This document shows positions 22,579 through 39,973 of a stretch of 49,432 nucleotides of DNA, piece after piece. Location of the stretch: the NCBI GenBank assembly GCA_022360695.1, contig JAKSCH010000073.1, forward strand, positions 1 to 49,432, read 5' to 3'. A program made the translations under genes and the position numbers. The notes under the pieces are model-generated. The model was not told where the DNA came from and did no database searches. It worked only from the letters and a program-made list of their open reading frames with translations. Position 1 is the stretch's first letter. Each line of letters opens with the position of its first letter. The DNA comes from Gemmatimonadota bacterium (lineage in GTDB: Bacteria > Gemmatimonadota > Gemmatimonadetes > Palauibacterales > Palauibacteraceae).

Positions 22579-22883
22579 CGAAGCACCTCTCGGAAGTGAT
22601 GGGCACGAGTCGCGGACGCGTCGCTACGCGAGGGTCGGACTTCTTCACCCTACGGAGACCCTCGCGGGAAAGTTCGGCGCGAGCTCGGTAGCCGGGGTCT
22701 CGGGCGTCGATCCAGGGCGTCGGGATGCTCTCGACAGAGACCCTCGACGGAATGGATTTTGACGTCGAGGGACAGGGATCGGTCGGATGCGACGACCGCC
22801 AGGCGTTATCTAGGCGCCATTACAACACGTTCCGGGACCGTACACTGCCACACGATAACCACAACTCCGCGGCGTCCGACGTA

Positions 22884-24830: not shown

Positions 24831-24848
24831 GCGGGTAAGGGTGGTAGT

Positions 24849-24873
24849 CGGCCCCCTCAAGCCGTCGGGGCCG
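24849..24873. terminator. Hairpin in the convergent gap between the GT-C and GT2 genes
   Basis: cggcccc-(11 nt loop)-ggggccg forms a 7-bp GC stem. It sits in the 26-bp convergent gap and overlaps the 3' end of the GT2 gene. Confidence 0.3.
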
Positions 24874-25975: not shown

Positions 25976-25980
25976 CCGCG

Positions 25981-26958
25981 TCACGCGAGCAACTCTCCTC
26001 TCGCCGGCGCGCTCACGGCGCCTTGCCGGCGCTTGGATCGGATGAAGAACTCCGCCAAGAGCCCGAGCATCAGCAGATAGGCCGACAGCGCGATCAGCAG
26101 CAGCACGACGGAGCCGAACGAAAGCCCGATGTCGACCCACCGGTAGGAGTTGAAGAGAAGACTCGCGCTCGCGGCGACCCCCAACAACAGCGCGGCGAGC
26201 AGCGGCGCCATCGCCCAGAGCGAGAACAACCGGAGGGGCCGCAACCGAAACGAGCGGATCATCTTCACGGTGATCAAGTCGGCCAGCACCTTCCCGACGC
26301 GCGACAGACCATAGCTGCTCTCGCCGGCGATCCGCGGGTGGTGGCGAACCTCGAGCTCGGCGATGCGGGCGGCGGCCGTACCGGCGGCCAGAGCGGGGAT
26401 GAACCGGTGCAGATCCGAGTACAGTCGCATTCGCTCGAGCAGCTCGCGCCGATAGGCCTTGAGCGAGCACCCGTTGTCGCGAATCGGCACGTTCGTGATC
26501 CAGCGGATGATCCGGTTGGCGATCTTCGAGGGGATCTTGCGAGTCAGCCACTTGTCCTGCCGGGCCATCCGGTACCCCGCCACGAGATCGTACCCTTCGG
26601 CGAGCTTGTCCAACAACGCGGGGATGTCGGCGGGATCGTTTTGGAGATCGCCGTCCATCGTCACCACGACCTCGCCGCGGCAATGGTCGAACCCCGCCTG
26701 CATCGCCGTCGACTGACCGTAGCGACGCGCGAGCGATACCAGGCGCACGCGAGGATCCGCCTCGCCGAGCCCGGCGACGACCTGTGCGGTCGAGTCGGTG
26801 CTCCCGTCGTTCACGAAGATGAGCTCCCAGTCGTTGTCGCCGAGCGCGGCCCGCACCTTCTCGGCCAGCGGACCGACGTTTTCCTCCTCGTCGAGCACGG
26901 GCACGACGATCGAGAGCTTCGGCTGGTTCGGCATACGGCGGCTCGGGGCAACCTCCAT
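25981..26958 (-). CDS. GT2 polyprenyl-phosphate glycosyltransferase (GtrB/ArnC/DPM1-like)
   Basis: Motifs: LSIVVPVLDEEENV, ELIFVNDGSTDST, ARRYGQSTAMQAGF and VVTMDGDLQNDP (DxD). Two C-terminal TM helices are present. This is the classic architecture of lipid-phosphate sugar transferases. The start is either 26958 or the ATG at 26934. Confidence 0.85.
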   Translation of the reverse strand: MEVAPSRRMPNQPKLSIVVPVLDEEENVGPLAEKVRAALGDNDWELIFVNDGSTDSTAQVVAGLGEADPRVRLVSLARRYGQSTAMQAGFDHCRGEVVVTMDGDLQNDPADIPALLDKLAEGYDLVAGYRMARQDKWLTRKIPSKIANRIIRWITNVPIRDNGCSLKAYRRELLERMRLYSDLHRFIPALAAGTAAARIAELEVRHHPRIAGESSYGLSRVGKVLADLITVKMIRSFRLRPLRLFSLWAMAPLLAALLLGVAASASLLFNSYRWVDIGLSFGSVVLLLIALSAYLLMLGLLAEFFIRSKRRQGAVSAPARGELLA

Positions 26959-27079
26959 GCCTCACGGAGCGCGGTCGCATCGGTCCGGGGTGCGGCCGTC
27001 CCCGAGACGGGACGCCGGACGGGCTGATGCGGTGTTGCGGATGAGCGACAGATCCCGATTCGGCGCTGAACCGCGCGGC

Positions 27080-28159
27080 TCAGCGCCGGCTCGGGGTCGC
27101 TCGAGCCGCGGGTCGGGACTCGTCCGCCACCGGCGCCGCCTCGGCCAGCTCGTCGATCGGCTGCTCCGGATCGGTGACGTGCAGATCGGCGAGATGCACG
27201 GCTCCGCCGATCAATGTCAGCGGTAGGACGAGGACGCGCACGACGACGGCGGCGGCGAGCGCCGAGTCGAACGGCACGCCGAGCTGAGCCGCCACGAAGG
27301 CGAACGAGCCCTCCTGGACCCCCAACCCGTTGAGCGAAATCGGGAGCGCCGCCGCGAGGCCGCTCACCGCGACGACGAGGGCGACGCTCCAGTAGCCGGT
27401 CGTAGCCCCGAGCGCGCCGAGTATGAAATACACGGCCAACACGGCGATGAAGTGGAAGACGAAGGAGTGGACCACGAGCCGCATCATCGGGCCGCGCGCG
27501 GCGCGGACCAACGCGACGTTCCGCGCCAGCGCGGCGAATTTCGGTCGTTCCCGGATCGCGGCGGCGATGCGATCGCGCAGAGCCGAGCGAACCGAGACGA
27601 GGCCCACGGACCCCACGAGCAGGGCAAGCACCGATCCGAGCACGTAGAGCCGAGCCGTGGGCGCGTCCTGACGCACGGCGACCCACACGGCCCCGATCAA
27701 CCCGAGAAACACGAGCGCCCCCAACCCCAGGAGACGCTCCACGACCACGGCGGAGAGCGCTCTCGACTTCGGAGCGCTCTCCGGCCACGTGCGAGCCACC
27801 CGGTATCCGTCGCCCCCGATCGAGCTCGGCAGGAAGTTGTTGAAGAACGCCGCCCCTGCGACGATTCGGCACAGTCGCAGCAGGGGCCATCTCAGACCGT
27901 GAGCCTCGAGCGAAGCCCGCCACTTGATCGCCGTCACCGGGTACTGCAACGCCAGCAGGAAGAAGCCGGCGGCGATCCAGAGCGGTCGCGTCCCGGCGAG
28001 CGAGGCATAGAGCTCGGACCAGTCGACCACGAGGAGCAGCACCGCGCCCAGTGCGAGGCTGATCGCGGTCTGCACCCAGAGGGCCCACGCTCTGCGGTCC
28101 GCCCTCACCGACCCGATCGCGGCGTCGCGGGCGGATGACGCGGTCGAGGGTTCGCTCAC
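27080..28159 (-). CDS. Flippase-like polytopic membrane protein (UPF0104 / lysyl-PG-synthase TM-region family)
   Basis: The C-terminal 359 codons of ORF 27080..29368. The GTG at 28159 overlaps the asnB stop (GTGA at 28156-28159). FFNNFLPSSIGGDGYR is the family motif as I recall it, and there are multiple TM helices. Confidence 0.7.
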   Translation of the reverse strand: MSEPSTASSARDAAIGSVRADRRAWALWVQTAISLALGAVLLLVVDWSELYASLAGTRPLWIAAGFFLLALQYPVTAIKWRASLEAHGLRWPLLRLCRIVAGAAFFNNFLPSSIGGDGYRVARTWPESAPKSRALSAVVVERLLGLGALVFLGLIGAVWVAVRQDAPTARLYVLGSVLALLVGSVGLVSVRSALRDRIAAAIRERPKFAALARNVALVRAARGPMMRLVVHSFVFHFIAVLAVYFILGALGATTGYWSVALVVAVSGLAAALPISLNGLGVQEGSFAFVAAQLGVPFDSALAAAVVVRVLVLPLTLIGGAVHLADLHVTDPEQPIDELAEAAPVADESRPAARATPSRR

Positions 28160-30102
28160 GACACCCGCGCTTCCGCGCTCTGGATCGCGATCTCGGCTTC
28201 GATGTCTCGCTGGGACTCGCCCAGGATCAGCATGCGATACCAGACCTCCGAGTTGAGCAGCAGCCAGAGGCGCTGCCCGTGGTCCGCTCGTCCGCCCATG
28301 TGCGCCCCGACGTGGGCGTCTATGGCGTCCTGTCGAATCAAGTCGTCCCGAGCGAGACGCGACTCCGCCAGAAACAGATGGTACAGAGTGGCGAATTCGT
28401 CCCGCATCATATACGGCAACGCCGAGGAGAACCCCTGCTTCGGACGGGTCACGACCGTTTCGGGCAGATGCCGCAGCGCGAGTCGTCGCTGTAGGTATCG
28501 TAGATCCCGCCCGCGGATCTTGAGATCCACCGGCAGGCGCGCGGCGAACTCCACCAACCGAACGTCCATGTAGGGGCTTCGCGCTTCGAGCCCGTGCGCC
28601 ATGGTCATCCGGTCCGTGATCATCACGGGATGGTCCGGCAGGCGGATCGCCGAGTCTGCGGACAGCATGCGGTCGATCGGGTGGAGGGCGGCGTCCGTCT
28701 CGAAGGGTCCGCGTACCGCTCCCTCGGCCTCGAATCCATCGATCGCGGCCCGCATCGCCTCGCCGTAGAGACCGACGCGAGCCCGTCGATTGAAATGAAA
28801 GTACGACAGCGTGTTCGCGTAGCGGTCGGCTCGGGTGAAGAACGACGCCTCGTGAAGCCACTTGATCTGGTGCGTTTTGCTCTTGTACCACCGTCCGTCG
28901 GGGAGAAGCCGGAGGGCCGGTCCGATCACGACGCGACGCAGCTCGTGAGGGATGCGTGCGTACGCGTCCGCGTACCGGTTCCCGTAGTAGCGGTCGTACC
29001 CCCCGAACAGCTCGTCGCCGCCGTCGCCACCGAGGACGACCTTCACGTGTCGGCTCGCGAGACGAGCGAGCTGGTACGTGGGAGCCGAGAGGGGGTCCGA
29101 CGGCTCGTCGAGCTGCCGAACCAGCGCCGGCAAGGCGAGCGACAGCGTCGGCTCGACCGTTCCCTCGTGGTGGTCGGTTTCGCACGCCTTCGCGACCTGT
29201 TTCGCGAACGGCGCCTCGTCGTACGACGCATGTGGCAACGCGAGGGTGAAGGTCGGTAACCTCCGGTGCCCGAGTCGTCGCGCGACCAGCGCGACGATCA
29301 GGCTCGAGTCGAGACCGCCGCTCAGAAAAGCGCCGACCGGCACGTCGCTGACCATGTGCGCGCCGCAAGCCTCGGTCAGCACCTCTTCGAGCTCATCCAG
29401 CAGGTCCTCCTCGGACCCTCCGTGCTTGGGCTCGTACGTGGGCGTCCAGTACCTGCGAACCTCGACTTCTTCGCCCGGTCGGTACGTCAACGTGTGCCCG
29501 GGGGGAAGCTTGCGGATACGCCGAAACATGCTGAGCGGCGGTGCGATGAATCTCAGCGCCAGGTACTGATCGAGCGCCCGATGGTCGAGCTCGGCCAGAC
29601 TCGGGTCCCAGGCCAGGAGTGCCTTGATCTCCGACGCGAACGCGAGACGACCACGATCGCAGTGGTAATAGAACGGCTTCTGACCCAGATGATCTCGTGC
29701 GGCGAACAGCGCGCGACGTTCGGTATCCCAGATGGCGAACGCGAACATCCCGCGGAGCGCCTCGACGCAACGCTCCCCCTCGAGGCCGTACAGATGCAGG
29801 ATGACTTCCGAGTCGGTGTTCGTCTCGAACCGGCAACCACGATCTTCGAGCCGTTTTCGCAGCTCGACGTAGTTGTAGATCTCCCCGTTGACGACCAAGC
29901 GGAGACGGCCGTCGCGACTCACGATCGGTTGTCGGCCTCGGGGGGAGAGATCGATGACGGAGAGCCGGACGTGCAGCAGCAGGCTGAGGTCGGTCGCGTC
30001 GATTCCGGCGTCGTCGGGCCCGCGGTGACGGAGCGCATCGAGCATGCGGGCGCCCACCGCGCGGTCGATCCCCGTCTCGATGATGCCTGCGATGCCGCAC
30101 AT
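28156..30102 (-). CDS. asnB: Asparagine synthase (glutamine-hydrolysing)-family amidotransferase
   Basis: I trimmed ORF 28156..30294 to the ATG at 30102 (cat at 30100-30102), preceded by GGGAGA. MCGIAGI provides the N-terminal Cys nucleophile, SGGLDSS is the PP-loop, and NGEIYNY is present. Confidence 0.9.
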   Translation of the reverse strand: MCGIAGIIETGIDRAVGARMLDALRHRGPDDAGIDATDLSLLLHVRLSVIDLSPRGRQPIVSRDGRLRLVVNGEIYNYVELRKRLEDRGCRFETNTDSEVILHLYGLEGERCVEALRGMFAFAIWDTERRALFAARDHLGQKPFYYHCDRGRLAFASEIKALLAWDPSLAELDHRALDQYLALRFIAPPLSMFRRIRKLPPGHTLTYRPGEEVEVRRYWTPTYEPKHGGSEEDLLDELEEVLTEACGAHMVSDVPVGAFLSGGLDSSLIVALVARRLGHRRLPTFTLALPHASYDEAPFAKQVAKACETDHHEGTVEPTLSLALPALVRQLDEPSDPLSAPTYQLARLASRHVKVVLGGDGGDELFGGYDRYYGNRYADAYARIPHELRRVVIGPALRLLPDGRWYKSKTHQIKWLHEASFFTRADRYANTLSYFHFNRRARVGLYGEAMRAAIDGFEAEGAVRGPFETDAALHPIDRMLSADSAIRLPDHPVMITDRMTMAHGLEARSPYMDVRLVEFAARLPVDLKIRGRDLRYLQRRLALRHLPETVVTRPKQGFSSALPYMMRDEFATLYHLFLAESRLARDDLIRQDAIDAHVGAHMGGRADHGQRLWLLLNSEVWYRMLILGESQRDIEAEIAIQSAEARVS

Positions 30103-30365: not shown

Positions 30366-31511
30366 ATGAGCCAGTCTAGACTGAAACGCCTCGATTCGTC
30401 CAACCTGGTGCGCGACAGGCTGTTCGCGGGCGACAGGGGCGCGTTCGGCCGTTATCGCGACCTCGTGGTGGGCGATGGCTCGCTCTGGAGCCTGGTGCGT
30501 TTCGAGCTCATCACCACGTTCGTCGTGCCGCTCCCGGGTGCCCTCGGCATCGCTCTCCGTCGAATCTTCTGCCCGGCGCTCTTCGGCAGCGTGGGGCGCA
30601 AGCCGATCTTCGGGCGCAACATCGTGATCCGGAACGGCGCCGGCATACGGCTCGGGGACAACGTCGTGATCGACGACGGGTGTCTCGTCGACGCTCGGGG
30701 GGCCGGACCCGAGGGGGTCGCGATCGGCGACGGCGTGATCCTCAACCGGGACGCCATCGTGATCGCGAAGAGCGGTTCGATACGGATCGGCTCCGGCACG
30801 GACATCGGTGCCCGAGCCCAGGTCACGTCACAGGGCGGCGTCGAGATCGGCGAGTCGGTCTCGGTGGCCGGAGGGTCGAAGATCGGCGGCGGCCTCCTCG
30901 AGCCGCGAGCCGACGGACCGTCGGACGACGGTGGGCAGCCGGCCGCGACGAACGGGAGCCGCGGGCCGAGCCTCTCCTCCGCGAAGGGGTACGATCGGTT
31001 CACGCGTGGACCGATCCGGATCGGCGACCGAACCACCCTGTTCCCCAACGTGCTGGTGCTCGATGGGGTCGAGATCGGCGAGCAGGCGTTGATCGGCGCC
31101 GGGTCGGTGGTCACGAACGACGTGCCGGCCGCCAGCACCTATGCTCCGAGGCAGCGGGGTATCGTTCTCTCGCACGGACAGACCGCCGCCGCTGCCGAAG
31201 AAGCCGCGCCGATCTCGGCCCGCCCCCCCGAGCGGCAGACCGACGGAGGCGCACTCGACATCGTGTACGACGCCGTCGCGGAGCTCAACGAAACGCTGTC
31301 GGCGGATCATCGGTTGGCCTTGTCGCCCGACACGCGGCTCGTCGGCGGTGATCTGGCGTCCATCGACCTCGTGAACTTCGTGGTCGCGGCGGAGGACCGG
31401 CTCGAGAAGCTCGGCGTGCGCGTGGATCTGGCGGCCGCGTCGACGCTCGACCCATCGCCGCTCCAGACCCTCGGCACCCTCGCCGCCTACGTGGACGAAC
31501 TGACCCCGTGA
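30366..31511 (+). CDS. Hexapeptide-repeat (left-handed beta-helix) acyltransferase fused to a C-terminal acyl-carrier-protein-like domain
   Basis: The N-terminal roughly 265 aa carry hexapeptide repeats (IGDNVVIDDGCLVDARG, IGDGVILNRDAIV, IGSGTDIGARAQV, IGEQALIGAGSVV). An Ala/Pro linker follows. The last roughly 85 aa (VGGDLASIDLVNFVVAAEDRLEKLG) have a carrier-protein-like pattern with the candidate Ser at 31359-31361. Confidence 0.75.
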   Translation: MSQSRLKRLDSSNLVRDRLFAGDRGAFGRYRDLVVGDGSLWSLVRFELITTFVVPLPGALGIALRRIFCPALFGSVGRKPIFGRNIVIRNGAGIRLGDNVVIDDGCLVDARGAGPEGVAIGDGVILNRDAIVIAKSGSIRIGSGTDIGARAQVTSQGGVEIGESVSVAGGSKIGGGLLEPRADGPSDDGGQPAATNGSRGPSLSSAKGYDRFTRGPIRIGDRTTLFPNVLVLDGVEIGEQALIGAGSVVTNDVPAASTYAPRQRGIVLSHGQTAAAAEEAAPISARPPERQTDGGALDIVYDAVAELNETLSADHRLALSPDTRLVGGDLASIDLVNFVVAAEDRLEKLGVRVDLAAASTLDPSPLQTLGTLAAYVDELTP

Positions 31512-33229
31512 TCATGACGTCCGCGCAGGTCGCTTCGGGAGTCCTCGTTTCGGACTTCAATACGCAGAATCTCGCGAGTTTTCTCACCAACTCGGACGAC
31601 GTTCCCGACATCGAGGTTCGCGAGGCGCCGTACGGCCAGGTGGAGCAGGTCCTCTACGATCCCGGCCACTCGATCTGGACGCCCCGACCCGACTTCACGG
31701 TCGTGTGGACGCAACCGGCCGCAGCCCTGCCGACGTTCCGCTCCGCCCTCGCCTTCGAGGCTTCCGGGCACGTCGATATCCGCGAGGACGTCGAGCGATT
31801 CGCGGCGGCGGTCGGCTCGATCCGGGATCGGGTCGACACCGTGATCGTCCCGACCTGGACCCTGCCGCCAAGTACCCGAGGGCTCGGACCGATCGACTAC
31901 ACGCACCCGATGGGTCTTCGGAGACTCCTGCTCGAAGCCAACCTCGCCCTCGTCGAGGCGCTGGCGGACAGGCCCGGCGTCATCCTGCTCGATGGTGACG
32001 GTTGGATCCGCGCGGGCGCGGAGGAAGCGATCAACGAGCGCCTCTGGTATCTGGCGAAAGTCCCGTTCGGCAACGCGGTGTTCCGTGAGGCGGCGCGTGA
32101 GATCCGGTCGACGTTGCGGGCGGCCGAGGGGGATGCCCGCAAGCTGTTGGTCCTGGATCTCGACAACACGTTGTGGGGGGGCGTCGTCGGGGACGATGGG
32201 TGGGAGTCGATCGTCCTCGGCGGTCACGATGCCGACGGCGAGGCATTCCAGGACTTTCAACGTGCCTTGAAGGGCCTCGCGAATCGCGGAATCGTCCTGG
32301 GGATCGCGAGCAAGAACCAGGAGCGCACCGCGCTCGAGGCGATCGAGCGCCACCCGGAGATGGTGCTGTCGCACGAGGATTTCGCGGCGTGGCGGATCAA
32401 CTGGGACGACAAGGCTCGAAATATCGCGGAGCTGACCGAAGAGCTGAACCTCGGCTTGGGGTCGGTCGTCTTCATCGACGACTCGCCCGCGGAGCGCGCC
32501 CGCGTACGCGAAGCGCTCCCGGAGGTGCTCGTTCCGGAGTGGCCGAGCTCGCCGGCGAAGTACGCGACCGCGCTGGCCGAGCTCACCTGCTTCGACTCGC
32601 TCGCGCTCACGGAGGAAGACCGGGCGCGTGGAGGGATGTATCGGGCGGAACGCGATCGGCGGGTCGCTCGCACGGAGGTCGATTCGATCGAGGAATGGCT
32701 CGCGACGCTCGAGACCGAGCTCACGATAGAGCGGCTGACGCCGACGGATCTCGCGCGCGCTGCGCAGCTGCTCAACAAGACGAACCAGATGAACATGGCC
32801 ACGCGCCGGATGGGTGAAACCGAGCTGGCCAGGTGGGCGGATGCCGACGAGAACGAATTCTGGACCGTTCGCGTGTCGGATCGGTTCGGCGCGCACGGGC
32901 TGACCGGTCTGATCGGACTGACGAGACACGAGTCCGAGCTGCACGTGGTCGATTTCGTCCTGAGCTGCCGTGTAATGGGTCGGAACGTCGAACGGTCGAT
33001 GTGGGCCTGGATCGTGGCGCGGGCGAAGGAAGCGGGACTGGAGCGCGTCTACGCCATCTATCGACGGACCGAGCGAAACCAGCCGTGCCTGGAGTTCCTG
33101 GAAGGTGCCGGACTGGTCAGGGGTGAGGATGAAGGGTCGTTCGGTTGGGACAGTGCGAACGAGTACGCGATCCCGACCGGGGTCTCGCTGGTCGAGACCG
33201 ACGCTACGGTCGCTGTACTTCCCCGATGA
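31508..33229 (+). CDS. FkbH-like HAD-superfamily IIIC protein with a C-terminal GNAT-like domain
   Basis: HAD motifs: LLVLDLDNTLWGG (DxDxT), GIASKNQ and VVFIDDSP. The C-terminus has VDFVLSCRVMGRNVE. The start is the GTG at 31508, overlapping the upstream stop, or the ATG at 31514. Confidence 0.8.
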   Translation: MIMTSAQVASGVLVSDFNTQNLASFLTNSDDVPDIEVREAPYGQVEQVLYDPGHSIWTPRPDFTVVWTQPAAALPTFRSALAFEASGHVDIREDVERFAAAVGSIRDRVDTVIVPTWTLPPSTRGLGPIDYTHPMGLRRLLLEANLALVEALADRPGVILLDGDGWIRAGAEEAINERLWYLAKVPFGNAVFREAAREIRSTLRAAEGDARKLLVLDLDNTLWGGVVGDDGWESIVLGGHDADGEAFQDFQRALKGLANRGIVLGIASKNQERTALEAIERHPEMVLSHEDFAAWRINWDDKARNIAELTEELNLGLGSVVFIDDSPAERARVREALPEVLVPEWPSSPAKYATALAELTCFDSLALTEEDRARGGMYRAERDRRVARTEVDSIEEWLATLETELTIERLTPTDLARAAQLLNKTNQMNMATRRMGETELARWADADENEFWTVRVSDRFGAHGLTGLIGLTRHESELHVVDFVLSCRVMGRNVERSMWAWIVARAKEAGLERVYAIYRRTERNQPCLEFLEGAGLVRGEDEGSFGWDSANEYAIPTGVSLVETDATVAVLPR

Positions 33230-33232
33230 CGC

Positions 33233-34222
33233 ATGCACGTAACGATCACGGGTGGCACGGGGTTCATCGGTACGCGACTCGCGGAGCGCTGCGTCGAACG
33301 TGGCGACACCGTGATCGCCCTGGGTCAGAAGAACACGTCGGCCGAGTCGGCCAACCTCGCGCGTCTCGAGGACGCCGGCGTCGATGTCCGCATGGGGTCG
33401 GTAACGGACTCCGCCGCGGTGGAGCGCGCGGTCGCCGGGAGCGACGTCGTTTTCCACCTCGCCGCCGCGATGCACGAGATGAACGTTCCCGACGGCCACT
33501 ACCACGAAGTCAACATCGAGGGGACGCGCAACGTGCTCGCGGTGAGCGCGCGGGCGGGCATACGCCGCGTGGTGCACGGTAGCACGATCGGTGTGTACGG
33601 CATCACGCACGGGCGGGTCGATGAGACGACCCCTTGCGTCCCCACGAACATCTACGGCCGAACCAAGCTGGAAGCCGAGCGGGTCGTGCTCGAAGCGGCG
33701 GAACGGGTGCCGCTCGTCGTCGTCCGCATCCCCGAGATCTATGGCCCCGGGGACCGGCGGCTGTTGAAGATGTTCCGCGGCCTCCGACGCGGTCGTTTTC
33801 CGATGGTCGGGAGGGGGCGCAACCTGCACCCGTTGTTGTTCGTGGACGACCTGATCGACGGGCTGTGGCAAGCCGCCGAATCGGACGCGGTGGTAGGCGA
33901 GGTGGTGCTGTTCGCCGGGCCGACCGCGATCACCACGACGGAGATGGTCCGCACGGTAGCGGAGTCGGTCGGCGTGAAGGGGCCGCGGTTTCGGCTGCCC
34001 ATGTGGCCCTTCCTGCTCGTCGGGACCGTGCTCGAGAAGACGCTGCGGCCGATGGGGATTCAACCACCGCTCCACACGCGGCGGCTCGACTTCTTCCGCA
34101 AAGGGTTCGAAGTTTCGGCGGACAAAGCGCGACGTCTGTTGGGGTTCGAGCCCCACGTATCGTTTCGGGATGGTGCGAAGGCCACGGCGGATTGGTACCG
34201 GAGTCAGGGCCTGCTCACGTGA
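33233..34222 (+). CDS. Extended SDR, NAD-dependent epimerase/dehydratase family
   Basis: VTITGGTGFIGTRL is the glycine-rich NAD site, and NIYGRTKLEAE is the YxxxK motif. The gene starts 3 nt after the FkbH-like stop. Confidence 0.85.
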   Translation: MHVTITGGTGFIGTRLAERCVERGDTVIALGQKNTSAESANLARLEDAGVDVRMGSVTDSAAVERAVAGSDVVFHLAAAMHEMNVPDGHYHEVNIEGTRNVLAVSARAGIRRVVHGSTIGVYGITHGRVDETTPCVPTNIYGRTKLEAERVVLEAAERVPLVVVRIPEIYGPGDRRLLKMFRGLRRGRFPMVGRGRNLHPLLFVDDLIDGLWQAAESDAVVGEVVLFAGPTAITTTEMVRTVAESVGVKGPRFRLPMWPFLLVGTVLEKTLRPMGIQPPLHTRRLDFFRKGFEVSADKARRLLGFEPHVSFRDGAKATADWYRSQGLLT

Positions 34223-34986
34223 TGAAAGACCAGAGTCGCAGCTCGCGGCTCTCGGGGGAGGTGGAGGTGGCGCTTACGGCTCGCATGGAGCCCTTCGACT
34301 CGTTCTGGGAGGCTCCCGAGGACATCGAAGCGGGGTACGATCGTTTCGCGCGTTTCTATACGCACAACTATCTGCCTCACGTTCCAGACCGCCGAGATGC
34401 ACGGATTCTGGTCATCTCCTGCGGTCCGGGGTATTTCGTGAAACTGCTCATCGACCGCGGGTACACCGCGGTCTCCGGGATCGATTCGTTCCCGGAGAAG
34501 ATCGAGCACGCCGTCCGGAAGGGTCTGCCGTGCGAGACCGCCGAGGCGTTTCCGTTCCTCGAGACTTCGGCGGAGCGGTTCGATCTCATCATCTGCGAGC
34601 AAGAGCTCAACCATCTGACGAAGCAGGAGATCCTCGACTTCTTCGCGCTCTGTCGGAAGCGACTCGCACCCGGCGGGAGGATCATCCTCCACGCGATCAA
34701 CGGCGCCACGCCGCTGACCGGCTCGGAGTCGCGGCACGGCAACTTCGATCACTACTGCAGCTTCACCGAGTACAGTCTCGCGCAGGTGCTCGAGTACGGC
34801 GGGTTCGAGAACGTCGAGATCTACGGGCTCAACCTCTATGTCTTCTGGACGAACCCGCTCAACTACGTCGCGCTGGCGATCGATCGGCTGTGGACGTGGT
34901 TCTTTCGGCTCAACTTCCGACTCGTAGGCAAGGACGCCCGGATCTTTTCGAAGAAGATCGGAGCCGTCGGGACGAAACCGGCCTGA
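34222..34986 (+). CDS. Class I SAM-dependent methyltransferase
   Basis: The ATG at 34222 overlaps the SDR stop (TGATG). Motif I is ILVISCGPGYFVKLLIDRG, followed by SGIDSF and LAPGGRIILH. Confidence 0.8.
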   Translation: MKDQSRSSRLSGEVEVALTARMEPFDSFWEAPEDIEAGYDRFARFYTHNYLPHVPDRRDARILVISCGPGYFVKLLIDRGYTAVSGIDSFPEKIEHAVRKGLPCETAEAFPFLETSAERFDLIICEQELNHLTKQEILDFFALCRKRLAPGGRIILHAINGATPLTGSESRHGNFDHYCSFTEYSLAQVLEYGGFENVEIYGLNLYVFWTNPLNYVALAIDRLWTWFFRLNFRLVGKDARIFSKKIGAVGTKPA

Positions 34987-34999
34987 GCGAGCGGAAGCG

Positions 35000-36721
35000 A
35001 TGAAGCGGGACTTGTCGGCGCTCGCGAACGAGCGCGTCCAGATCCTCGTGGTCGGCGGCGGCGTGTACGGCGCCGCGTTCGCCCGAGACGCCGCGGCGCG
35101 CGGTTTGTCGGTCGCGCTGGTCGAGAAGGATGACTTTCTCGGCGCCGCCTCGGGGAATTCGTTCCGAATGGTGCACGGCGGGATCCGCTACGTGCAGCAC
35201 GGCGACGTCGCGCGCGTTCGGGCGTCTTCTCGCGAGCGAACGGTCCTCCTGGGCACCGCCCCGCACCTCGTCCGCCCGCTCCCGATCGCCATCCCCACGT
35301 ACGGCCGCGGGATGCAGGGGCGCGCGGTGCTTCGGACGGGCATCGCGATCTACGATCTCCTCACGGCGGACAAGAACCGTCGGGTTCGCGATCCCGACCG
35401 CCGTACGCCCTGGGGACGCTCGATGGGTCGCGACGAGCTCCTGGGGCTCTTCCCGGGGATCGAGCGCCGGGGGCTGACGGGCGCGGGCCTCTTCTCCGAC
35501 GCCCAGATGCTCCACCCGCAGCGGCTCGGGCTCGCGATGCTCCGGTCCGCGGTCGACGACGGCGCGCGCGTGGCGAATCACGTCGAGGTCACTCGGCTCG
35601 TCCAACGCGGCGAACGCGTCGAGGGGGTCGAGGTCCGGGACGCGCTCACGGGTGAGGGGTTTCGAGTCGAGGCGGACGTCGTCGTGCTGGCGGCCGGTGC
35701 GTGGTCCGAGCGGTTGGTGGCCGCGCACACCGGCGACGACCGGGCCCGTCGATCGACGTTCTCGCGCGACCTGTGTCTGGTCATCGACCGACCCGCGGAC
35801 CCCGACATCGGCGTCGCCGTGCTCGGTCGGACATCCGACCCCGACGCGATCCTCAGCCGTTCGAAGCGTCACCTGTTCGTCGTGCCGTGGCGTGACAAGA
35901 CGATCGTCGGGGTGTGGCACATCCCGTACGAACGCTCGCCCGACGACATCCGGGTCGGCGAAGAGGAGCTGCGGTCCTTCGTGGACGAGCTGAACGCCGG
36001 CTACCCCGGCTTCGGGCTGACGCGGGATGAGCTGACGCACTACAACACCGGTCTCGTGCTGTTCGGCGAGAACCGGGTGGGCGCGGAGGATCTACGCTAC
36101 GGTCATCGCTCGCTGCTGATCGACCACGCGACCGAACATGGGATCGAAGACCTGTACAGCTTGATCGGGGTTCGGTACACGACCGCCAGGGTGGACTCGC
36201 AACGGCTGCTCGACCGGATCATCGCGAAGCGCGGTTGGACGGCGGACTCGGGGCGGACCGCGCACACCCCCGTCCGCGGAGGCGACTTCGAGACGTTCGC
36301 GGGTCTGGTCGCCGACACGCGACGCGAGTGGCCGGGACGATCGGGCGCGGACATCGAGCGGGTCTGCCGACTCTACGGGACGGACGCGAGCGACGTGCTC
36401 GGAACCGACGCCGAGGTCGGAGTCCCGGCGTCGGATGACGCGAACGCCGACCTGCTCGCGAAACAGGTTCGGTACTCGATTCGCGAAGAGATGGCGGTGC
36501 GTCTCCAGGATATCGTGGTCGGGCGGACGGATCTCGGGCTGTTCGGCGCTCCCCCGAGACGGGAGCTCGAGCGATGCGTTACGATCATGGCGCGAGAGCT
36601 GGGGTGGGATCCGGCCCGCTGCGCCGCCGAGCTCCGACGCGTCGAGGAGATGTATCCGCTTTCGGAGCCCGTGAGCGCGAGCTCCCGAACCGACTCGTTA
36701 CGAGAGGGTGCCCTTCGTTGA
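35000..36721 (+). CDS. FAD-dependent oxidoreductase, glycerol-3-phosphate dehydrogenase (GlpD)-like
   Basis: VQILVVGGGVYGAAFARDAAARGLSVALVEKDDFLGAASGNSFRMVHGGIRY matches the GlpD-type N-terminus. The length (573 aa) is consistent with a DAO domain plus the GlpD C-terminal domain. Confidence 0.8.
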   Translation: MKRDLSALANERVQILVVGGGVYGAAFARDAAARGLSVALVEKDDFLGAASGNSFRMVHGGIRYVQHGDVARVRASSRERTVLLGTAPHLVRPLPIAIPTYGRGMQGRAVLRTGIAIYDLLTADKNRRVRDPDRRTPWGRSMGRDELLGLFPGIERRGLTGAGLFSDAQMLHPQRLGLAMLRSAVDDGARVANHVEVTRLVQRGERVEGVEVRDALTGEGFRVEADVVVLAAGAWSERLVAAHTGDDRARRSTFSRDLCLVIDRPADPDIGVAVLGRTSDPDAILSRSKRHLFVVPWRDKTIVGVWHIPYERSPDDIRVGEEELRSFVDELNAGYPGFGLTRDELTHYNTGLVLFGENRVGAEDLRYGHRSLLIDHATEHGIEDLYSLIGVRYTTARVDSQRLLDRIIAKRGWTADSGRTAHTPVRGGDFETFAGLVADTRREWPGRSGADIERVCRLYGTDASDVLGTDAEVGVPASDDANADLLAKQVRYSIREEMAVRLQDIVVGRTDLGLFGAPPRRELERCVTIMARELGWDPARCAAELRRVEEMYPLSEPVSASSRTDSLREGALR

Positions 36722-37866
36722 ACATCCTGATGTTCAACTACGAATACCCGCCGTTGGGGGGAGGAGGCGGGGTCGCGCACGAGCTGATCGCCGAGGCGCT
36801 GGCGAGGCGGCACCGCGTCGTGGTGGTGACCTCGGGGTATCGCGATCTACCCGACCGGGAGACGCGTGGAGACGTGGAGATTCTCCGCGTCCCGGTGTGG
36901 GGACGGAAGGAGCTCGCCGTCGCCTCGATCCCTTCGATGCTCACCTTCCCTGCGGCGACCCGGCGTATCTACGACGCGCTCGACTCGGAGTCGTTCGACC
37001 TCGTCACGGGGTTTTTCGCGGTGCCCACCGGCCCCGCGTCGGTGGCCTACGCGAAGCGCAAACGGTTGCCCCACGTGGTCTCGACCCTGGGCGGGGACAT
37101 CTACGATCCCTCGAAGACGATGTCTCCGCACCGAATCCCGCCGCTCAAGTGGGCCGTGCGCAACGTGCTCCGGGACTCGGCACGCATCATCGCGGACTCC
37201 GACGACACGCGCGAGAATATCGCGCGCTACTACGGCCGGGTCGGCGACGTGGACGTGATCCGGCTCGGGATCCGTCGCGTCTCGCCGCCGCCCGCCACGC
37301 GAAGCGAGCTGGGGCTCCCGGAGGACGTCTTCCTGACGACGACGGTAGGCCGACTGGTACCTCGCAAGGGGCTCGACCGCTTGATCCGCGTCCTGGCGGC
37401 GCCCGAGCTCGGCCAGGTGCATCTCGCCATCATGGGATCCGGTCCGGAGCGCGCGGCGCTCGAACGATTGGCGCAGAGCGAAGGCGTAGCCGACCGGGTT
37501 CGATTCATGGGCTGGGTGGACGAGGAGACCAAATGGCAGGTGATGCGCGTTGCGGATGCGTTCGTCACCGCGACGCTGCACGAGGGCTACGGTCTGATGT
37601 TCCTCGAGGCGATGGCCGAAGGGCTCCCGATCGTGGCACCCGATCATGGCGGACACACGGACTTCCTCACGGATGGCGTGACGGGGTTCCTGACGCCGGC
37701 GGGGGATGAGGAAGCCCTGCGGGCAGCCATCGCGCGCGTATCGACGGATGAAGAGCTGCGGCAGCGCGTCGGGGACACGAACCGCCGGCTCTTCGATGAG
37801 GAGCACGATATCGAGCCGTGCGCGGCCGCCTACGAGGCGGTGTTCGAGGAGGTGCTCGGCAGGTAG
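36718..37866 (+). CDS. GT4 (GT-B fold) glycosyltransferase
   Basis: The TTG at 36718 overlaps the upstream stop (TTGA). This start gives (M)NILMFNYEYPPLGGGGG. The EX7E region is HEGYGLMFLEAMAEGLPIVAPDHGG. An alternative ATG lies at 36730. Confidence 0.85.
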   Translation: MNILMFNYEYPPLGGGGGVAHELIAEALARRHRVVVVTSGYRDLPDRETRGDVEILRVPVWGRKELAVASIPSMLTFPAATRRIYDALDSESFDLVTGFFAVPTGPASVAYAKRKRLPHVVSTLGGDIYDPSKTMSPHRIPPLKWAVRNVLRDSARIIADSDDTRENIARYYGRVGDVDVIRLGIRRVSPPPATRSELGLPEDVFLTTTVGRLVPRKGLDRLIRVLAAPELGQVHLAIMGSGPERAALERLAQSEGVADRVRFMGWVDEETKWQVMRVADAFVTATLHEGYGLMFLEAMAEGLPIVAPDHGGHTDFLTDGVTGFLTPAGDEEALRAAIARVSTDEELRQRVGDTNRRLFDEEHDIEPCAAAYEAVFEEVLGR

Positions 37867-39928: not shown

Positions 39929-39973
39929 CCGTCCCTTTTCCTCGACTTTCGATCCCTGGAGCGGCTACGGCAC

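What the first reader, a model, noticed from the sequence alone, without database searches (positions are those of the whole stretch)
30366..37866. PKS-free FkbH / carrier-protein / redox / O-methyltransferase operon inside a glycan locus
Six co-oriented genes are packed with overlaps or gaps of 13 nt or less: GTGA at 31508-31511, a 3-nt gap at 33229/33233, TGATG at 34220-34224, a 13-nt gap at 34986/35000, and TTGA at 36718-36721. They encode (1) a hexapeptide acyltransferase with a fused carrier-protein domain, (2) an FkbH-like HAD-IIIC loader, (3) an NAD-binding extended SDR, (4) a class I SAM methyltransferase, (5) a GlpD-like flavoenzyme and (6) a GT4. Functionally this is the same toolkit as the FkbG/H/I/J/K methoxymalonyl-ACP route: an FkbH loader of a glycolytic C3 unit, an ACP, an NAD dehydrogenase, a flavin dehydrogenase and an O-methyltransferase. 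Here, however, the dehydrogenases and the methyltransferase come from different families. No ketosynthase, acyltransferase-PKS or NRPS module lies anywhere in the window. The only plausible acceptors for the tethered unit are the LbH acyltransferase and the surrounding glycosyltransferases. My hypothesis is that a glycerate-derived C3 acyl group, possibly oxidised and O-methylated, is built on the carrier domain and transferred to a sugar or glycolipid. Alternative readings: the SDR may act on a nucleotide sugar, and the GlpD-like enzyme may act on free glycerol-3-phosphate.
Basis: partly seen in the sequence, partly recalled or inferred. Interest (0 to 1): 0.78.

Follow-up and report, generated by a model that had tools for sequence, protein, structure and literature searches.

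The report
FkbH-loaded carrier-fused glycan acyltransferase cassette
A Gemmatimonadetes cell-envelope sugar locus contains an acyltransferase with its own built-in carrier domain and a dedicated FkbH loader, which most likely puts a three-carbon glyceroyl group on a sugar; this offers a testable genetic basis for glycan glyceroylation, whose genes have not been identified.

Summary
All six genes, their junctions and their domain families are as described, and the window contains no PKS or NRPS.

Strongly supported: FkbH, the carrier domain fused to the hexapeptide (LbH) acyltransferase, and the LbH domain act as one unit.
- The FkbH catalytic motifs are intact.
- The C-terminal domain models as a four-helix carrier with Ser332 at the start of helix II. 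It belongs to a family of standalone carriers found next to FkbH genes (E=2.6e-21).
- In related loci the fusion tracks a loader. Carrier-fused LbH genes sit beside FkbH (7 independent loci) or beside an AMP-ligase (2). Nine loci with unfused LbH showed no FkbH or carrier.
- LbH::FkbH and WecG-GT::LbH::FkbH fusion proteins also exist.

Not supported: the reading of the SDR, flavoenzyme and methyltransferase as a methoxymalonyl-like toolkit. These genes, with the GT4, flippase-like and AsnB-like genes, form a cassette that also occurs without FkbH or a carrier. The GlpD-like enzyme lacks the Arg and His found in all solved glycerol-3-phosphate enzymes.

The real locus spans 22725-37866. It also holds an ArnC-like GT2, a degenerate GT2 and a GT39-like GT-C.

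PKS-free FkbH-carrier pairs in glycan loci are widespread and uncharacterised.

The parts
22725..24830 (+). GT39/PMT-like GT-C membrane glycosyltransferase (701 aa). It is predicted to use a polyprenyl-phosphate sugar donor.
   Evidence: The window protein itself has no Pfam hit. Its homologues at 34-65% identity carry PF02366/PF13231, and one is named GT39. There is a weak Agl23 hit. A homologue lies next to LbH, SDR, GT4 and GT2 in L093.
24857..25975 (-). Degenerate GT2 paralogue (372 aa), probably non-catalytic
   Evidence: It is 26% identical (E=9e-21) to the neighbouring GT2. The DxD motif is replaced ('VTMDGDLQ' becomes 'VTLPAYRR'), and there is no Pfam hit.
25981..26958 (-). ArnC/GtrB-like GT2, a candidate polyprenyl-phosphate sugar synthase
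   Evidence: PF00535 E=1e-31. The best NCBIfam hit is ArnC at 181 bits, below its 529-bit cut-off. Orthologues at 41-45% identity occur in L089 and L091-L093.
27080..28159 (-). Flippase-like membrane protein (LPG_synthase_TM / TIGR00374)
   Evidence: PF03706 E=1.6e-39. TIGR00374 scores 67 bits against a 43.2-bit cut-off. The GTG start at 28159 overlaps the AsnB stop. The gene is conserved in the cassette loci.
28156..30102 (-). AsnB-like glutamine amidotransferase (start at MCGIAG). It probably amidates a carboxylate.
   Evidence: Asn_synthase E=4e-84 plus GATase_7. TIGR03108, the XrtA-type amidotransferase, scores 485 bits, below its 817-bit cut-off. Orthologues at 50-67% identity occur in the cassette loci.
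30366..31250 (+). Helical N-terminal region plus LbH (hexapeptide) acyltransferase domain of the fusion protein
   Evidence: Hexapep E=1.4e-10. AlphaFold2 (AF2) models a beta-helix, and Foldseek hits are LbH acyl/acetyltransferases such as DapH-type, NeuO, WlbB and QdtC. Most family members are 250-270 aa and unfused.
31251..31511 (+). Fused carrier-protein domain (residues ~296-381). The predicted phosphopantetheine site is Ser332 (codon 31359-31361).
   Evidence: The model has four helices at pLDDT ~90, with Ser332 at the N-terminus of helix II. A PDB profile search found carrier proteins for 14 of 17 hits, with the DSL Ser aligned. Foldseek hits 3lmo and 4h2s have TM 0.61-0.64. An HMM of standalone FkbH-adjacent carriers hits the domain at E=2.6e-21.
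31508..33229 (+). Long-form FkbH: FkbH_N domain, HAD-IIIC phosphatase domain and Cys-containing transfer domain. It is the predicted loader of a glyceryl unit.
   Evidence: TIGR01686 scores 316 bits against a 146.65-bit cut-off. D217/D219/T221, S268, K302, D324 and the Ser486-Cys487-Arg488 (SCR) motif are invariant against ZmaN-like, Streptomyces and PKS-fused FkbH. The PDB hit 3slr covers the N-terminal and HAD domains.
33233..34222 (+). Extended SDR (HpnA/OleD-like). Its substrate is unknown, and it is always adjacent to this LbH family.
   Evidence: PF01370 E=4e-40, with HpnA at 147 bits below its cut-off. It is paired with the LbH gene in every related locus with enough flanking sequence, with or without FkbH. 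A natural FkbH::SDR fusion has an SDR part 40% identical to it.
34222..34986 (+). Class I SAM methyltransferase
   Evidence: PF13489, PF13649 and PF08241. Orthologues at 50-72% identity occur in cassette loci, including FkbH-less ones.
35000..36721 (+). GlpD/GlpO-like FAD oxidoreductase with a DAO_C domain and a divergent active site
   Evidence: PF01266 and PF16901. The glpD models score 193 bits, below the 360-bit cut-off. The 'GLVLFG' and 'SRDLCLV' segments replace the G-x-R-P-L Arg and the K-G-x-H His of 2qcu, 2rgh, 2rgo and 3da1.
36718..37866 (+). GT4 retaining glycosyltransferase
   Evidence: PF00534 E=1.6e-37 and PF13439. The best NCBIfam hits, BshA and stp2 at 106 bits, are below their cut-offs. 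The gene is conserved in all cassette loci.

Best explanation
The six genes are the plus-strand half of a ~15-kb envelope glycoconjugate locus (22725-37866). The other half encodes an ArnC-like GT2, a flippase-like protein and a GT39-like GT-C. That trio is typical of glycosylation on the outer face of the membrane through a polyprenyl-phosphate sugar. An AsnB-like amidotransferase is also present.

Within this locus FkbH, the carrier domain and the LbH domain form one acyl-transfer unit.
- FkbH takes a glycolytic C3 unit. By family precedent this is 1,3-bisphosphoglycerate, which is dephosphorylated and held on Cys487.
- FkbH then loads the unit as glyceryl thioester on the phosphopantetheine of Ser332, in the carrier domain fused to the LbH acyltransferase.
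- The LbH domain transfers the glyceroyl group to a hydroxyl or amino group of a sugar intermediate (nucleotide-linked or polyprenyl-linked).

The SDR, methyltransferase, GlpD-like flavoenzyme and GT4 belong to an older conserved cassette. That cassette builds or tailors the sugar acceptor and does not need FkbH.

Shown: gene content, domains, conserved catalytic motifs, carrier fold, and fusion/loader co-variation.
Inferred: the identity of the C3 unit, the acceptor, and the order of steps.
For: FkbH
- It is well above the family cut-off.
- It keeps the HAD DxDxT, Ser, Lys and Asp motifs and the SCR cysteine shared with NRPS/PKS-associated homologues.

Carrier domain
- AF2 models four helices at pLDDT ~90, with Ser332 at the start of helix II.
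- Carrier-protein hits come from a PDB sequence profile and from fold search.
- It is homologous (E=2.6e-21) to the 110-aa standalone proteins that sit next to FkbH in 18 other genomes.

Co-variation of fusion and loader
- Carrier-fused LbH of this type has FkbH nearby in the window, L001/L002, L131, L005, L022, L130 and L136.
- Two fused LbH proteins with a PF00550-like carrier have an AMP-ligase directly downstream instead.
- Nine loci with unfused LbH showed no FkbH and no carrier in the sequence recovered.

Natural fusions
- LbH::FkbH, WecG-GT::LbH::FkbH and an LbH::PP-binding protein occur next to GT4 and PMT_2 in an unrelated LbH lineage.

Context
- ArnC-like GT2, flippase-like protein and AsnB-like protein.
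- GT39-like GT-C.
- Carriers lie next to FkbH in 52 of 80 genomes, among PseB-like, DegT, deacetylase, MBOAT and GT4 genes, with no PKS-like family among the recurrent neighbour clusters.
Against: - No long-form (573-aa) FkbH has been characterised as far as I know, so the unit loaded could differ from glycerate.
- PF00550 itself does not score the window's carrier domain, and the residue before Ser332 is Ala, not Asp.
- The LbH family has no invariant His, so its chemistry may be unusual.
- The acceptor is unknown, and no aminotransferase is present that would make an amino sugar.
- An FkbH::SDR fusion exists, and genes 1-6 are tightly translationally coupled. Both leave room for on-carrier processing.
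- FkbH-less loci were only searched within about 10 kb or to the contig end. A loader encoded elsewhere cannot be excluded.
Confidence: 0.62

Rival explanations
1. Glyceryl-S-carrier is processed on the carrier by the SDR (as an FkbK analogue), the GlpD-like flavoenzyme (as an FkbI analogue) and the methyltransferase (as an FkbG analogue). The result would be an oxidised and/or O-methylated C3 acyl group, such as a methoxymalonyl-like or O-methylglyceroyl group, which the LbH domain then transfers to a sugar.
For: - All six genes overlap or are separated by 13 nt or less.
- A natural FkbH::SDR fusion has an SDR part 40% identical to the window SDR.
- The SDR shows partial thioester-reductase and NAD_binding_4 similarity.
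- O-methylated glyceroyl groups exist on glycans. Campylobacter jejuni carries 2,3-di-O-methylglyceroyl-Pse (PMC3068675), and its locus holds an FkbH-domain gene, cj1302 (PMC7099621).
Against: - SDR, MT and DAO orthologues (37-57% identity) are kept with the LbH, GT4, flippase-like and AsnB-like genes in loci that have no FkbH and no carrier (L004, L087-L089).
- They are also kept where an AMP-ligase replaces FkbH (L129).
- The SDR is paired with unfused LbH in minimal loci too (L003, L091-L093).
- None of the three belongs to the FkbK, FkbI or FkbG families.
- Most FkbH-carrier pairs elsewhere lack these three genes.
Confidence: 0.2
2. The FkbH-like protein acts only as a HAD phosphatase on a sugar-phosphate or polyprenyl-phosphate intermediate. 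The carrier domain carries some other acyl group, such as a fatty acyl or acetyl group, supplied by general metabolism.
For: - NCBI names the protein only 'HAD-IIIC family phosphatase'.
- The extra N-terminal domain (FkbH_N, PDB 3slr) has no known function.
- Another cassette locus (L004) carries an unrelated HAD hydrolase.
Against: - The C-terminal transfer domain and its SCR cysteine are conserved with NRPS/PKS-associated homologues.
- FkbH presence matches carrier presence exactly in the loci examined.
- A carrier lies next to FkbH in 52 of 80 genomes, and a phosphopantetheinyl transferase in 7.
Confidence: 0.08
3. The glyceroyl group is not a decoration but a primer or aglycone. Glyceryl-carrier, or a glyceroyl amide or ester made by the LbH domain, would be glycosylated by the BshA/MshA-like GT4. 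The product would be a glycosyl-glycerate headgroup or small molecule, comparable to glucosylglycerate-primed methylglucose lipopolysaccharide or to the N-glyceroyl-alkylamine glycolipids of Thermus and Deinococcus.
For: - The best GT4 hits include BshA and MshA, which glycosylate small hydroxy-acid or polyol acceptors.
- Methylglucose lipopolysaccharide clusters combine GT4, MT and LbH acyltransferase genes (my own knowledge, not tested).
- N-glyceroyl alkylamine lipids are reported for Meiothermus (PMC3035268 was returned by the search but was not read).
Against: - The GT4 and the rest of the cassette occur without FkbH or a carrier, so glycerate cannot be the universal core.
- The GT4 scores are far below the BshA and MshA cut-offs.
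- The GT2, flippase-like and GT-C trio points to polymer or protein glycosylation.
Confidence: 0.1

Closest known systems
The FkbH/FkbJ step of the methoxymalonyl- and hydroxymalonyl-ACP and tetronate glyceryl-ACP pathways (FK520 FkbH, zwittermicin ZmaN/ZmaD, OzmB, bafilomycin BafAIV)
   Same: The catalytic core is the same: a HAD-IIIC domain plus a Cys-containing transfer domain. The DxDxT, Ser, Lys and Asp motifs and the SCR Cys are invariant in alignment with a ZmaN-like protein and with Streptomyces and Rhodococcus homologues. A dedicated carrier protein lies next to it.
   Different: - No PKS or NRPS acceptor is present.
- The protein has an extra ~200-aa FkbH_N domain. PKS-type proteins are ~360 aa (e.g. 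BafAIV at 367 aa, PMC3679948).
- The carrier is fused to an LbH transferase.
- FkbK-, FkbI- and FkbG-family enzymes are absent.
Campylobacter jejuni NCTC 11168 flagellin glycosylation locus (FkbH-domain gene cj1302; 2,3-di-O-methylglyceroyl-pseudaminic acid), and the Tannerella forsythia Pse5Am7Gra glycan
   Same: An FkbH-domain gene sits in a glycan locus with no PKS, in an organism whose glycan carries a (methylated) glyceroyl group (PMC7099621, PMC3068675). An N-glyceroyl group on Pse is also known in T. forsythia (PMC5378307).
   Different: - No enzymology links cj1302 to the glyceroyl group in the papers I could read. Cj1295 was the gene implicated (PMC3068675).
- For T. forsythia the genetic basis is stated to be unknown (PMC5378307).
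- The window has no nonulosonic-acid genes, and I could not compare gene content with C. jejuni directly.
LpxA/LpxD, the acyl-ACP-dependent LbH acyltransferases of lipid A synthesis
   Same: A left-handed beta-helix acyltransferase takes its acyl group from a carrier-protein thioester and puts it on a sugar (established knowledge). LpxA and LpxD models give weak hits to the window's LbH domain.
   Different: Here the carrier is covalently fused to the transferase and is loaded by a dedicated FkbH, not by fatty-acid synthesis. The scores are far below the LpxA and LpxD cut-offs, and there is no invariant catalytic His.
Dlt system (DltA loader, DltC carrier, DltB MBOAT) for D-alanylation of teichoic acids
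   Same: The logic is the same: a dedicated loader, a small dedicated carrier and a transferase that decorates an envelope polymer. FkbH-carrier pairs also occur next to MBOAT genes in 11 of 80 loci. D-alanyl carrier proteins are among the PDB profile hits of the fused domain.
   Different: The loader is a HAD/FkbH enzyme rather than an adenylating enzyme, except in L129 and L137, where an AMP-ligase takes that place. The transferase is a soluble or monotopic LbH rather than an MBOAT, and the group is C3 hydroxyacyl rather than aminoacyl.
Arn (L-Ara4N) and Gtr-type pathways: polyprenyl-phosphate sugar synthase, flippase and GT-C transferase
   Same: The locus has an ArnC-like GT2 (181 bits), a flippase-like membrane protein and a GT39/ArnT-like GT-C next to sugar-tailoring enzymes that include an SDR and an acyltransferase.
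   Different: Scores are below all equivalog cut-offs. There is no aminotransferase, formyltransferase or deformylase. A GT4, an AsnB-like enzyme, an MT and a GlpD-like flavoenzyme are additional.

Membership tests
FkbH family (TIGR01686 / HAD-IIIC) | Profile score above the curated cut-off across the HAD and transfer domains | tested here: met
   TIGR01686 scores 316.3 bits (cut-off 146.65) over residues 210-535 and model positions 2-318 of 323. TIGR01681 scores 67.9 bits (cut-off 35.75).
FkbH family (TIGR01686 / HAD-IIIC) | HAD catalytic motifs (DxDxT nucleophile, Ser/Thr, Lys, acidic pair) and the conserved cysteine of the C-terminal transfer domain | tested here: met
   D217-x-D219-x-T221, S268, K302, D324 and S486-C487-R488 are invariant. 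The alignment includes a ZmaN-like protein from a zwittermicin-type cluster, a Streptomyces NRPS-cluster homologue and a Rhodococcus PKS-fused domain. They are also invariant across 20 long-form homologues. That this Cys carries the glyceryl intermediate is from my recollection of the OzmB work.
FkbH family (TIGR01686 / HAD-IIIC) | Loads a glyceryl unit from 1,3-bisphosphoglycerate onto a carrier protein | not testable with these tools
   This needs in vitro loading with intact-protein mass spectrometry.
Methoxymalonyl-ACP pathway (FkbG/H/I/J/K) | FkbK-type 3-hydroxyacyl-CoA dehydrogenase, FkbI-type acyl-CoA dehydrogenase and FkbG-type O-methyltransferase | tested here: not met
The three enzymes here are an extended SDR (PF01370), a DAO/GlpD-type flavoenzyme (PF01266 plus PF16901) and a Methyltransf_23/25/11-type MT.
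Methoxymalonyl-ACP pathway (FkbG/H/I/J/K) | The redox and methyl enzymes are functionally tied to FkbH and the carrier (they co-occur with them), and the product feeds a PKS or NRPS | tested here: not met
   SDR, MT and DAO orthologues occur without FkbH or a carrier in L004 and L087-L089, and with an AMP-ligase in L129. There is no PKS or NRPS in the window.
Carrier protein (PP-binding, PF00550) | Match to the Pfam profile | tested here: not met
   The window's domain gives no PF00550 hit at E<=1. Three of 10 homologous domains hit weakly, with a best E of 0.077. Distant fused relatives do carry it: P0181 and L139/L140.
Carrier protein (PP-binding, PF00550) | Four-helix bundle with a conserved Ser at the N-terminus of helix II | tested here: met
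   AF2 models helices 296-310, 332-348, 355-361 and 369-379 at pLDDT ~90, and Ser332 begins helix II. The Ser is invariant in 10 homologues and aligns with the DSL Ser of solved ACPs. Foldseek hits 3lmo and 4h2s_D have TM 0.61-0.64. An HMM of standalone FkbH-adjacent carriers hits the domain at E=2.6e-21.
Carrier protein (PP-binding, PF00550) | Phosphopantetheinylation of the Ser | not testable with these tools
   No PPTase gene was found in the window. PPTase genes lie next to FkbH in 7 of 80 other loci.
LbH (hexapeptide) acyltransferases | Hexapeptide repeats folding as a left-handed beta-helix | tested here: met
   PF00132 E=1.4e-10. The AF2 model shows short beta-strand rungs, and the Foldseek top hits are LbH transferases.
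LbH (hexapeptide) acyltransferases | Catalytic His base, as in LpxA, LpxD, PglD and GAT | tested here: inconclusive
   There is no invariant His in the 20-sequence family alignment. The invariant polar residues are D103, D109, K135 and D233, and R111 is nearly invariant (>=90%). Some LbH N-acetyltransferases also lack a base (my own knowledge).
GlpD/GlpO glycerol-3-phosphate dehydrogenase/oxidase | Score above the equivalog cut-off | tested here: not met
   The best models score 193 bits (cut-off 360) and 188 bits (cut-off 352). The fold and the DAO_C domain are shared.
GlpD/GlpO glycerol-3-phosphate dehydrogenase/oxidase | Substrate-site Arg of G-(L/V)-R-P-L and His of K-G-x-H-(I/L)-V-V, present in all four solved enzymes | tested here: not met
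   The cassette consensus is 't-G-L-v-l-f-G' and 's-r-d-l-c-l-v', so Arg becomes Val and His becomes Cys. Invariance across the six cassette enzymes was shown only for the flanking N349, G351, L352, F355 and G356. The H-G-G-I-R-Y motif is kept and the Lys becomes Arg392. The roles of these residues are from my recollection of the GlpD and GlpO structure papers, which I could not read.
Arn-type polyprenyl-phosphate sugar pathway | ArnC-type GT2, a flippase and a GT-C transferase encoded together | tested here: inconclusive
   All three types are present: the GT2 has ArnC as its best hit at 181 of 529 bits, the flippase-like protein matches TIGR00374, and the GT39-like protein is identified through its homologues. 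None reaches an equivalog cut-off, and no other Arn enzymes are present.

The most novel reading that the evidence does not exclude
FkbH-carrier pairs are the unrecognised general route by which bacteria and archaea put C3 hydroxyacyl groups on envelope glycans: glyceroyl, and lactyl where a MaoC-SDR fusion is present. The window would show one modular solution. A glycan acyltransferase carries its own carrier domain, and its acyl group is chosen by a swappable loader: FkbH for glyceroyl, an AMP-ligase for another acid, or no loader and no fusion for an acyl-CoA. If this is right, it would supply the missing genetic basis for N- and O-glyceroyl substituents such as those on pseudaminic acid.
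Probability: 0.4. Interest if true: 0.75.

Novelty: new variant of a known kind. Interest (0 to 1): 0.62.

Why it matters
Glyceroyl and O-methylglyceroyl groups are known on bacterial surface sugars. Examples are the flagellin glycan of C. jejuni and the S-layer glycan of T. forsythia. The 2017 T. forsythia paper (PMC5378307) calls the genetic basis of the N-glyceroyl group 'a major challenge'.

This locus and its relatives give a concrete, testable three-part machine for that chemistry: FkbH, carrier and LbH transferase.

The FkbH family is very large. It has 13,797 clusters at 50% identity. In the 80 best-matching genome loci examined, its neighbours were glycan genes and carriers rather than PKS genes. 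The loci come from many phyla, including Thaumarchaeota and Asgard archaea.

So the PKS-centred view of FkbH may describe a minority use. Genome-mining tools that treat FkbH as a polyketide marker may then mis-assign many loci.

A cultured carrier of the full cassette, Arhodomonas sp. AD133 (L022), makes experiments feasible.

Tried and rejected
1. Literature. Searches for FkbH together with polysaccharide, O-antigen or capsule terms found nothing. A broad multi-term search returned only irrelevant reviews. The only glycan paper that mentions FkbH is the C. jejuni FlaGrab study. Searches for cj1298-cj1304 functions gave nothing useful.

2. Carrier domain. Pfam did not detect it. I relied instead on a PDB profile, AF2, Foldseek and an HMM of neighbouring standalone carriers.

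3. Metagenome scan. The second gave only 9 true family loci among 44.

4. DprE1/DprE2-like epimerase idea. I considered that the flavoenzyme and the SDR act as an epimerase pair on a polyprenyl-phosphate sugar. The prompts were UbiA, HAD and PMT_2 genes in L004 and DUF4185 genes in L022 and L130. These extra genes are not conserved across cassette loci and the flavoenzyme belongs to a different family, so this stays speculation.

5. Hopanoid link. I considered one because of the HpnA- and HpnL-like hits. The scores are far below the cut-offs and no other hpn genes are present, so I rejected it.

6. The 683-aa HAD protein in L004. I checked whether it is a hidden FkbH. It is not.

7. GlpD residue roles. 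I could not confirm them from the literature.

8. Promoter and terminator scan. It was uninformative in this high-GC DNA.

9. NJ tree of FkbH proteins. Cassette-linked copies fall in one loose sub-clade together with non-cassette copies. The tree is too weak to build on.

Full report
**Source and observation**

The window is a 49,432-bp contig of a Gemmatimonadetes metagenome-assembled genome. The FkbH-like, LbH and 701-aa proteins have 100% matches named as such, all on a contig of that length.

The six plus-strand ORFs at 30366-37866 exist. They have the high third-position GC expected of real genes in this 67% GC DNA. I read each junction from the sequence: GTGA at 31508-31511, a 3-nt gap at 33229/33233, TGATG at 34220-34224, a 13-nt gap at 34986/35000, and TTGA at 36718-36721.

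Profile searches confirm the families:
- hexapeptide (LbH) acyltransferase;
- FkbH (TIGR01686, 316 bits against a cut-off of 146.65, plus HAD-IIIC);
- extended SDR (PF01370);
- class I SAM methyltransferase;
- DAO plus DAO_C flavoenzyme;
- GT4.

No large ORF in the window has PKS or NRPS domains. The one caveat is that Pfam's PP-binding model does not detect the proposed carrier domain.

**Is the C-terminal segment a carrier?**

Most homologues of the LbH protein are 250-270 aa. About a dozen are 350-397 aa and have the extra C-terminal ~90 residues. In these the segment has an invariant Ser in an L-(D/E/A)-S-(L/I/M)-x-L-V motif.

- A profile of the segment searched against all PDB sequences returned 17 weak hits, of which 14 are carrier proteins. 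The best has E=0.005, with the Ser aligned to the DSL serine.
- An AlphaFold2 (AF2) model built on the family alignment gives four helices (296-310, 332-348, 355-361, 369-379) at pLDDT ~90. A disordered linker joins them to the beta-helix.
- Ser332 is the first residue of helix II.
- Foldseek finds LbH transferases for the body. For the tail it finds a 'specialized acyl carrier protein' (3lmo) and an aminoacyl carrier protein (4h2s_D), with TM 0.61-0.64.
- The strongest evidence is an HMM built from 110-aa standalone proteins that lie next to FkbH homologues in 18 other genomes and have no Pfam hit. It matches the window's tail at E=2.6e-21.

So the tail is a carrier of an FkbH-associated type.

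**Is FkbH competent?**

I aligned the protein with three homologues:
- a ZmaN-like protein from a Bacillus thuringiensis zwittermicin-type NRPS/PKS cluster;
- a Streptomyces homologue flanked by ACP, acyl-CoA dehydrogenase and NRPS genes;
- an FkbH domain inside a Rhodococcus type I PKS.

The window protein keeps the DxDxT motif (D217, D219, T221), S268, K302, D324 and the S-C-R motif (C487). It differs from the ~360-aa PKS-type proteins by an N-terminal ~200-aa FkbH_N domain. The only solved relative, B. fragilis BF1531 (3slr), shares that domain.

**What travels with what?**

I fetched 80 genome loci around FkbH homologues and clustered their neighbours.
- A carrier gene lies beside FkbH in 52 of 80 loci. 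Of these, 34 are PF00550-type and 18 are the 110-aa type.
- The other recurrent neighbours are PseB-like dehydratases (17), DegT aminotransferases (10), polysaccharide deacetylases (13), MBOATs (11), AsnB-like enzymes (18), GT4s (11), UDP-glucose-dehydrogenase-like proteins (10), MaoC-SDR fusions (23) and phosphopantetheinyl transferases (7).
- These are glycan genes, not PKS genes.
- The loci span many bacterial phyla and several archaeal lineages.
- The family has 13,797 representatives at 50% identity.

The specific six-gene set is rarer. It recurs, with rearrangements, in other Gemmatimonadota (L001/L002, L131 and, partly, L005) and in the cultured gammaproteobacterium Arhodomonas sp. AD133 (L022).

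**The key comparison**

Anchoring on the LbH family instead of FkbH shows three states.

(a) Carrier-fused LbH of the window's type. FkbH is adjacent or within ~5 kb in the window, L001/L002, L131, L005, L022, L130 and L136.

(b) LbH fused to a PF00550-like carrier (L129, L137). An AMP-binding ligase is immediately downstream and there is no FkbH.

(c) Unfused LbH (L003, L004, L087-L093). There is no FkbH, and my carrier HMMs find no carrier.

States (b) and (c) still contain orthologues of the SDR (always next to the LbH gene). In L004, L087-L089 and L129 they also contain the methyltransferase, the GlpD-like flavoenzyme, the GT4, the flippase-like protein and the AsnB-like enzyme, at 37-57% identity.

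The minimal loci L091-L093 have LbH, SDR, GT4 and an orthologue of the window's GT2. L093 also has a homologue of the window's 701-aa membrane protein.

Two conclusions follow.
- The carrier fusion and its loader form a module that was added to a pre-existing cassette.
- The SDR, methyltransferase and flavoenzyme do not depend on FkbH.

**Independent support from fusions**

Among FkbH representatives are LbH::FkbH proteins (P0261, P0262, P0280, P0284) and a WecG-glycosyltransferase::LbH::FkbH protein (P0269).

P0262 sits between a PMT_2 GT-C and a second LbH::PP-binding fusion followed by a GT4. Its LbH domain is only 28% identical to the window's. The same logic has therefore arisen in another LbH lineage.

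There is also an FkbH::SDR fusion whose SDR part is 40% identical to the window's SDR. It follows two small upstream ORFs (77 and 102 aa) that have no Pfam hit and were not tested with the carrier HMMs, and it precedes a GT4. It could equally reflect loss of the stop codon in the 3-nt gap between FkbH and the SDR gene.

**The wider locus**

Divergently transcribed from gene 1 are four genes.
- An AsnB-like amidotransferase (28156-30102). Its best hit is the XrtA-type amidotransferase, below cut-off.
- A flippase-like LPG_synthase_TM protein (27080-28159). Its GTG start overlaps the AsnB stop.
- An ArnC-like GT2 (25981-26958).
- A degenerate GT2 paralogue that has lost the DxD motif (24857-25975).

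Convergent with them is a 701-aa membrane protein. Its homologues carry PMT/PMT_2 domains and one is named GT39.

This trio (a candidate polyprenyl-phosphate sugar synthase, a flippase-like protein and a GT-C) is typical of glycosylation on the outer face of the membrane. The 'glycan locus' context is therefore real.

**The GlpD-like enzyme**

It aligns end to end with GlpO and GlpD structures but scores below the curated cut-offs.

A profile of six cassette enzymes aligned to 2qcu, 2rgh, 2rgo and 3da1 shows two changes. The Arg of the G-(L/V)-R-P-L motif is replaced by Val, and the His of K-G-x-H by Cys in the profile consensus. The H-G-G-I-R-Y motif is kept.

I recall these as substrate-site residues but could not check the papers. 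Free glycerol-3-phosphate is therefore an unlikely substrate. The true one is unknown.

**Mechanism proposed**

FkbH converts 1,3-bisphosphoglycerate to a glyceryl thioester on Ser332-phosphopantetheine of the fused carrier. The LbH domain then transfers the glyceroyl group to a sugar intermediate made and tailored by the rest of the cassette.

The product is then either exported through the GT2, flippase-like and GT-C route or incorporated by the GT4.

The loading chemistry is inferred from family precedent. The acceptor and the order of steps are inferred only from context. I put 0.62 on this model, 0.2 on on-carrier oxidation or methylation, and smaller weights on a phosphatase-only FkbH or a glycerate-primed product.

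**Comparison with what is known, and novelty**

- FkbH-to-ACP loading is established in polyketide pathways.
- Acyl-ACP-dependent LbH transferases are established (LpxA, LpxD).
- Loader-carrier-transferase decoration of envelope polymers is established (Dlt).
- Glyceroyl groups on glycans are known chemically, and C. jejuni has an FkbH-domain gene (cj1302) in its flagellin glycosylation locus (PMC7099621, PMC3068675).
- I found no report linking FkbH to glycan acylation enzymatically. The T. forsythia literature states that the genetic basis of N-glyceroylation is open (PMC5378307).

I therefore rate this a new variant of a known kind. Its interest is moderate to high because it makes that open question testable, and because FkbH-carrier pairs in glycan loci appear to be far more common than their use in polyketide pathways.

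Noticed in passing
window 24857-25975 (-): A second GT2-like gene lies directly downstream of the ArnC-like GT2. It is 26% identical to that gene, has lost the DxD motif and has no Pfam hit, so it may be a pseudo-enzyme partner. L093 also carries two GT2 copies.
   Followed up: partly
window 35000-36721; L001, L004, L022, L129, L131 orthologues: The cassette's GlpD-like flavoenzymes lack the Arg (GxRPL) and His (KGxH) present in all four solved glycerol-3-phosphate dehydrogenases and oxidases. They keep the HGGIRY motif and the DAO_C domain. The substrate is unknown.
   Followed up: partly
L007, L008, L012, L014, L025, L027, L029, L030, L032, L038, L041, L042, L049, L059, L061, L063, L068, L073, L077, L079, L080, L084 (also L022): A MaoC-dehydratase::SDR fusion protein lies next to FkbH in 23 of 80 loci, and a natural FkbH::MaoC fusion exists (P0090). 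By analogy with the bryostatin loading module (my own knowledge), this could convert glyceryl-carrier to lactyl-carrier, giving lactyl groups on glycans.
   Followed up: no
L038, L041 (Nitrososphaerales), L040, L046 (Promethearchaeota), L052 (Thorarchaeota), L075 (Micrarchaeota), L060 (Staskawiczbacteria): Long-form FkbH homologues occur in archaea and candidate-phyla-radiation bacteria. Most have a PF00550 carrier nearby, and several have a phosphopantetheinyl transferase gene nearby. FkbH-carrier pairs in archaea are unexpected.
   Followed up: no
L139 3329-6516 and L140 1735-4922: Soil-metagenome loci encode a PMT_2 GT-C, an LbH::FkbH fusion (795 aa), an LbH::PP-binding fusion (267 aa) and a GT4. 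This is an independent LbH lineage with the same loader, carrier and transferase logic.
   Followed up: partly
L129 9273-11890 and L137 1244-2907: In two cassette loci the carrier-fused LbH is followed by an AMP-binding ligase instead of FkbH. The ligase's NCBIfam hits include the exosortase-A-associated acyl-CoA ligase model TIGR03098 (235 bits, below cut-off). The acid it activates is unknown.
   Followed up: partly
window 30366-31250 and alignment A2: This LbH family has no invariant histidine. The invariant polar residues are D103, D109, K135 and D233, within a 'D-A-R-G-A-G' motif in which R111 is nearly invariant. It also has a ~75-residue helical, partly hydrophobic N-terminal region ('LPGALGLxLR') that may anchor it to the membrane.
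   Followed up: no
plasmid hits (e.g. L133, Sinorhizobium meliloti Rm41 pSymB 1034272-1035327): FkbH-core homologues at 38-40% identity are present on 40 Sinorhizobium pSymB-type plasmids and 15 Ralstonia megaplasmids. The PLSDB gene tables do not annotate them. These are genetically tractable hosts in which a non-PKS FkbH could be studied.
   Followed up: no
L022 12742-13836 and 4912-6048; L130 1980-3203: DUF4185 proteins sit inside or beside the cassette in Arhodomonas and in one metagenome locus. From my own knowledge, DUF4185 was recently linked to endo-D-arabinanase activity, which could hint at the kind of polymer made.
   Followed up: no
window 2618-5374 (-), 5433-7004 (-), 14411-17686 (-), 39833-43666 (+): The flanks hold large secreted or surface-type proteins: a multicopper oxidase, FG-GAP/ASPIC-UnbV repeat proteins and a sortilin/BNR protein. 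They are unrelated to the cassette, and L001 and L131 do not share them.
   Followed up: no
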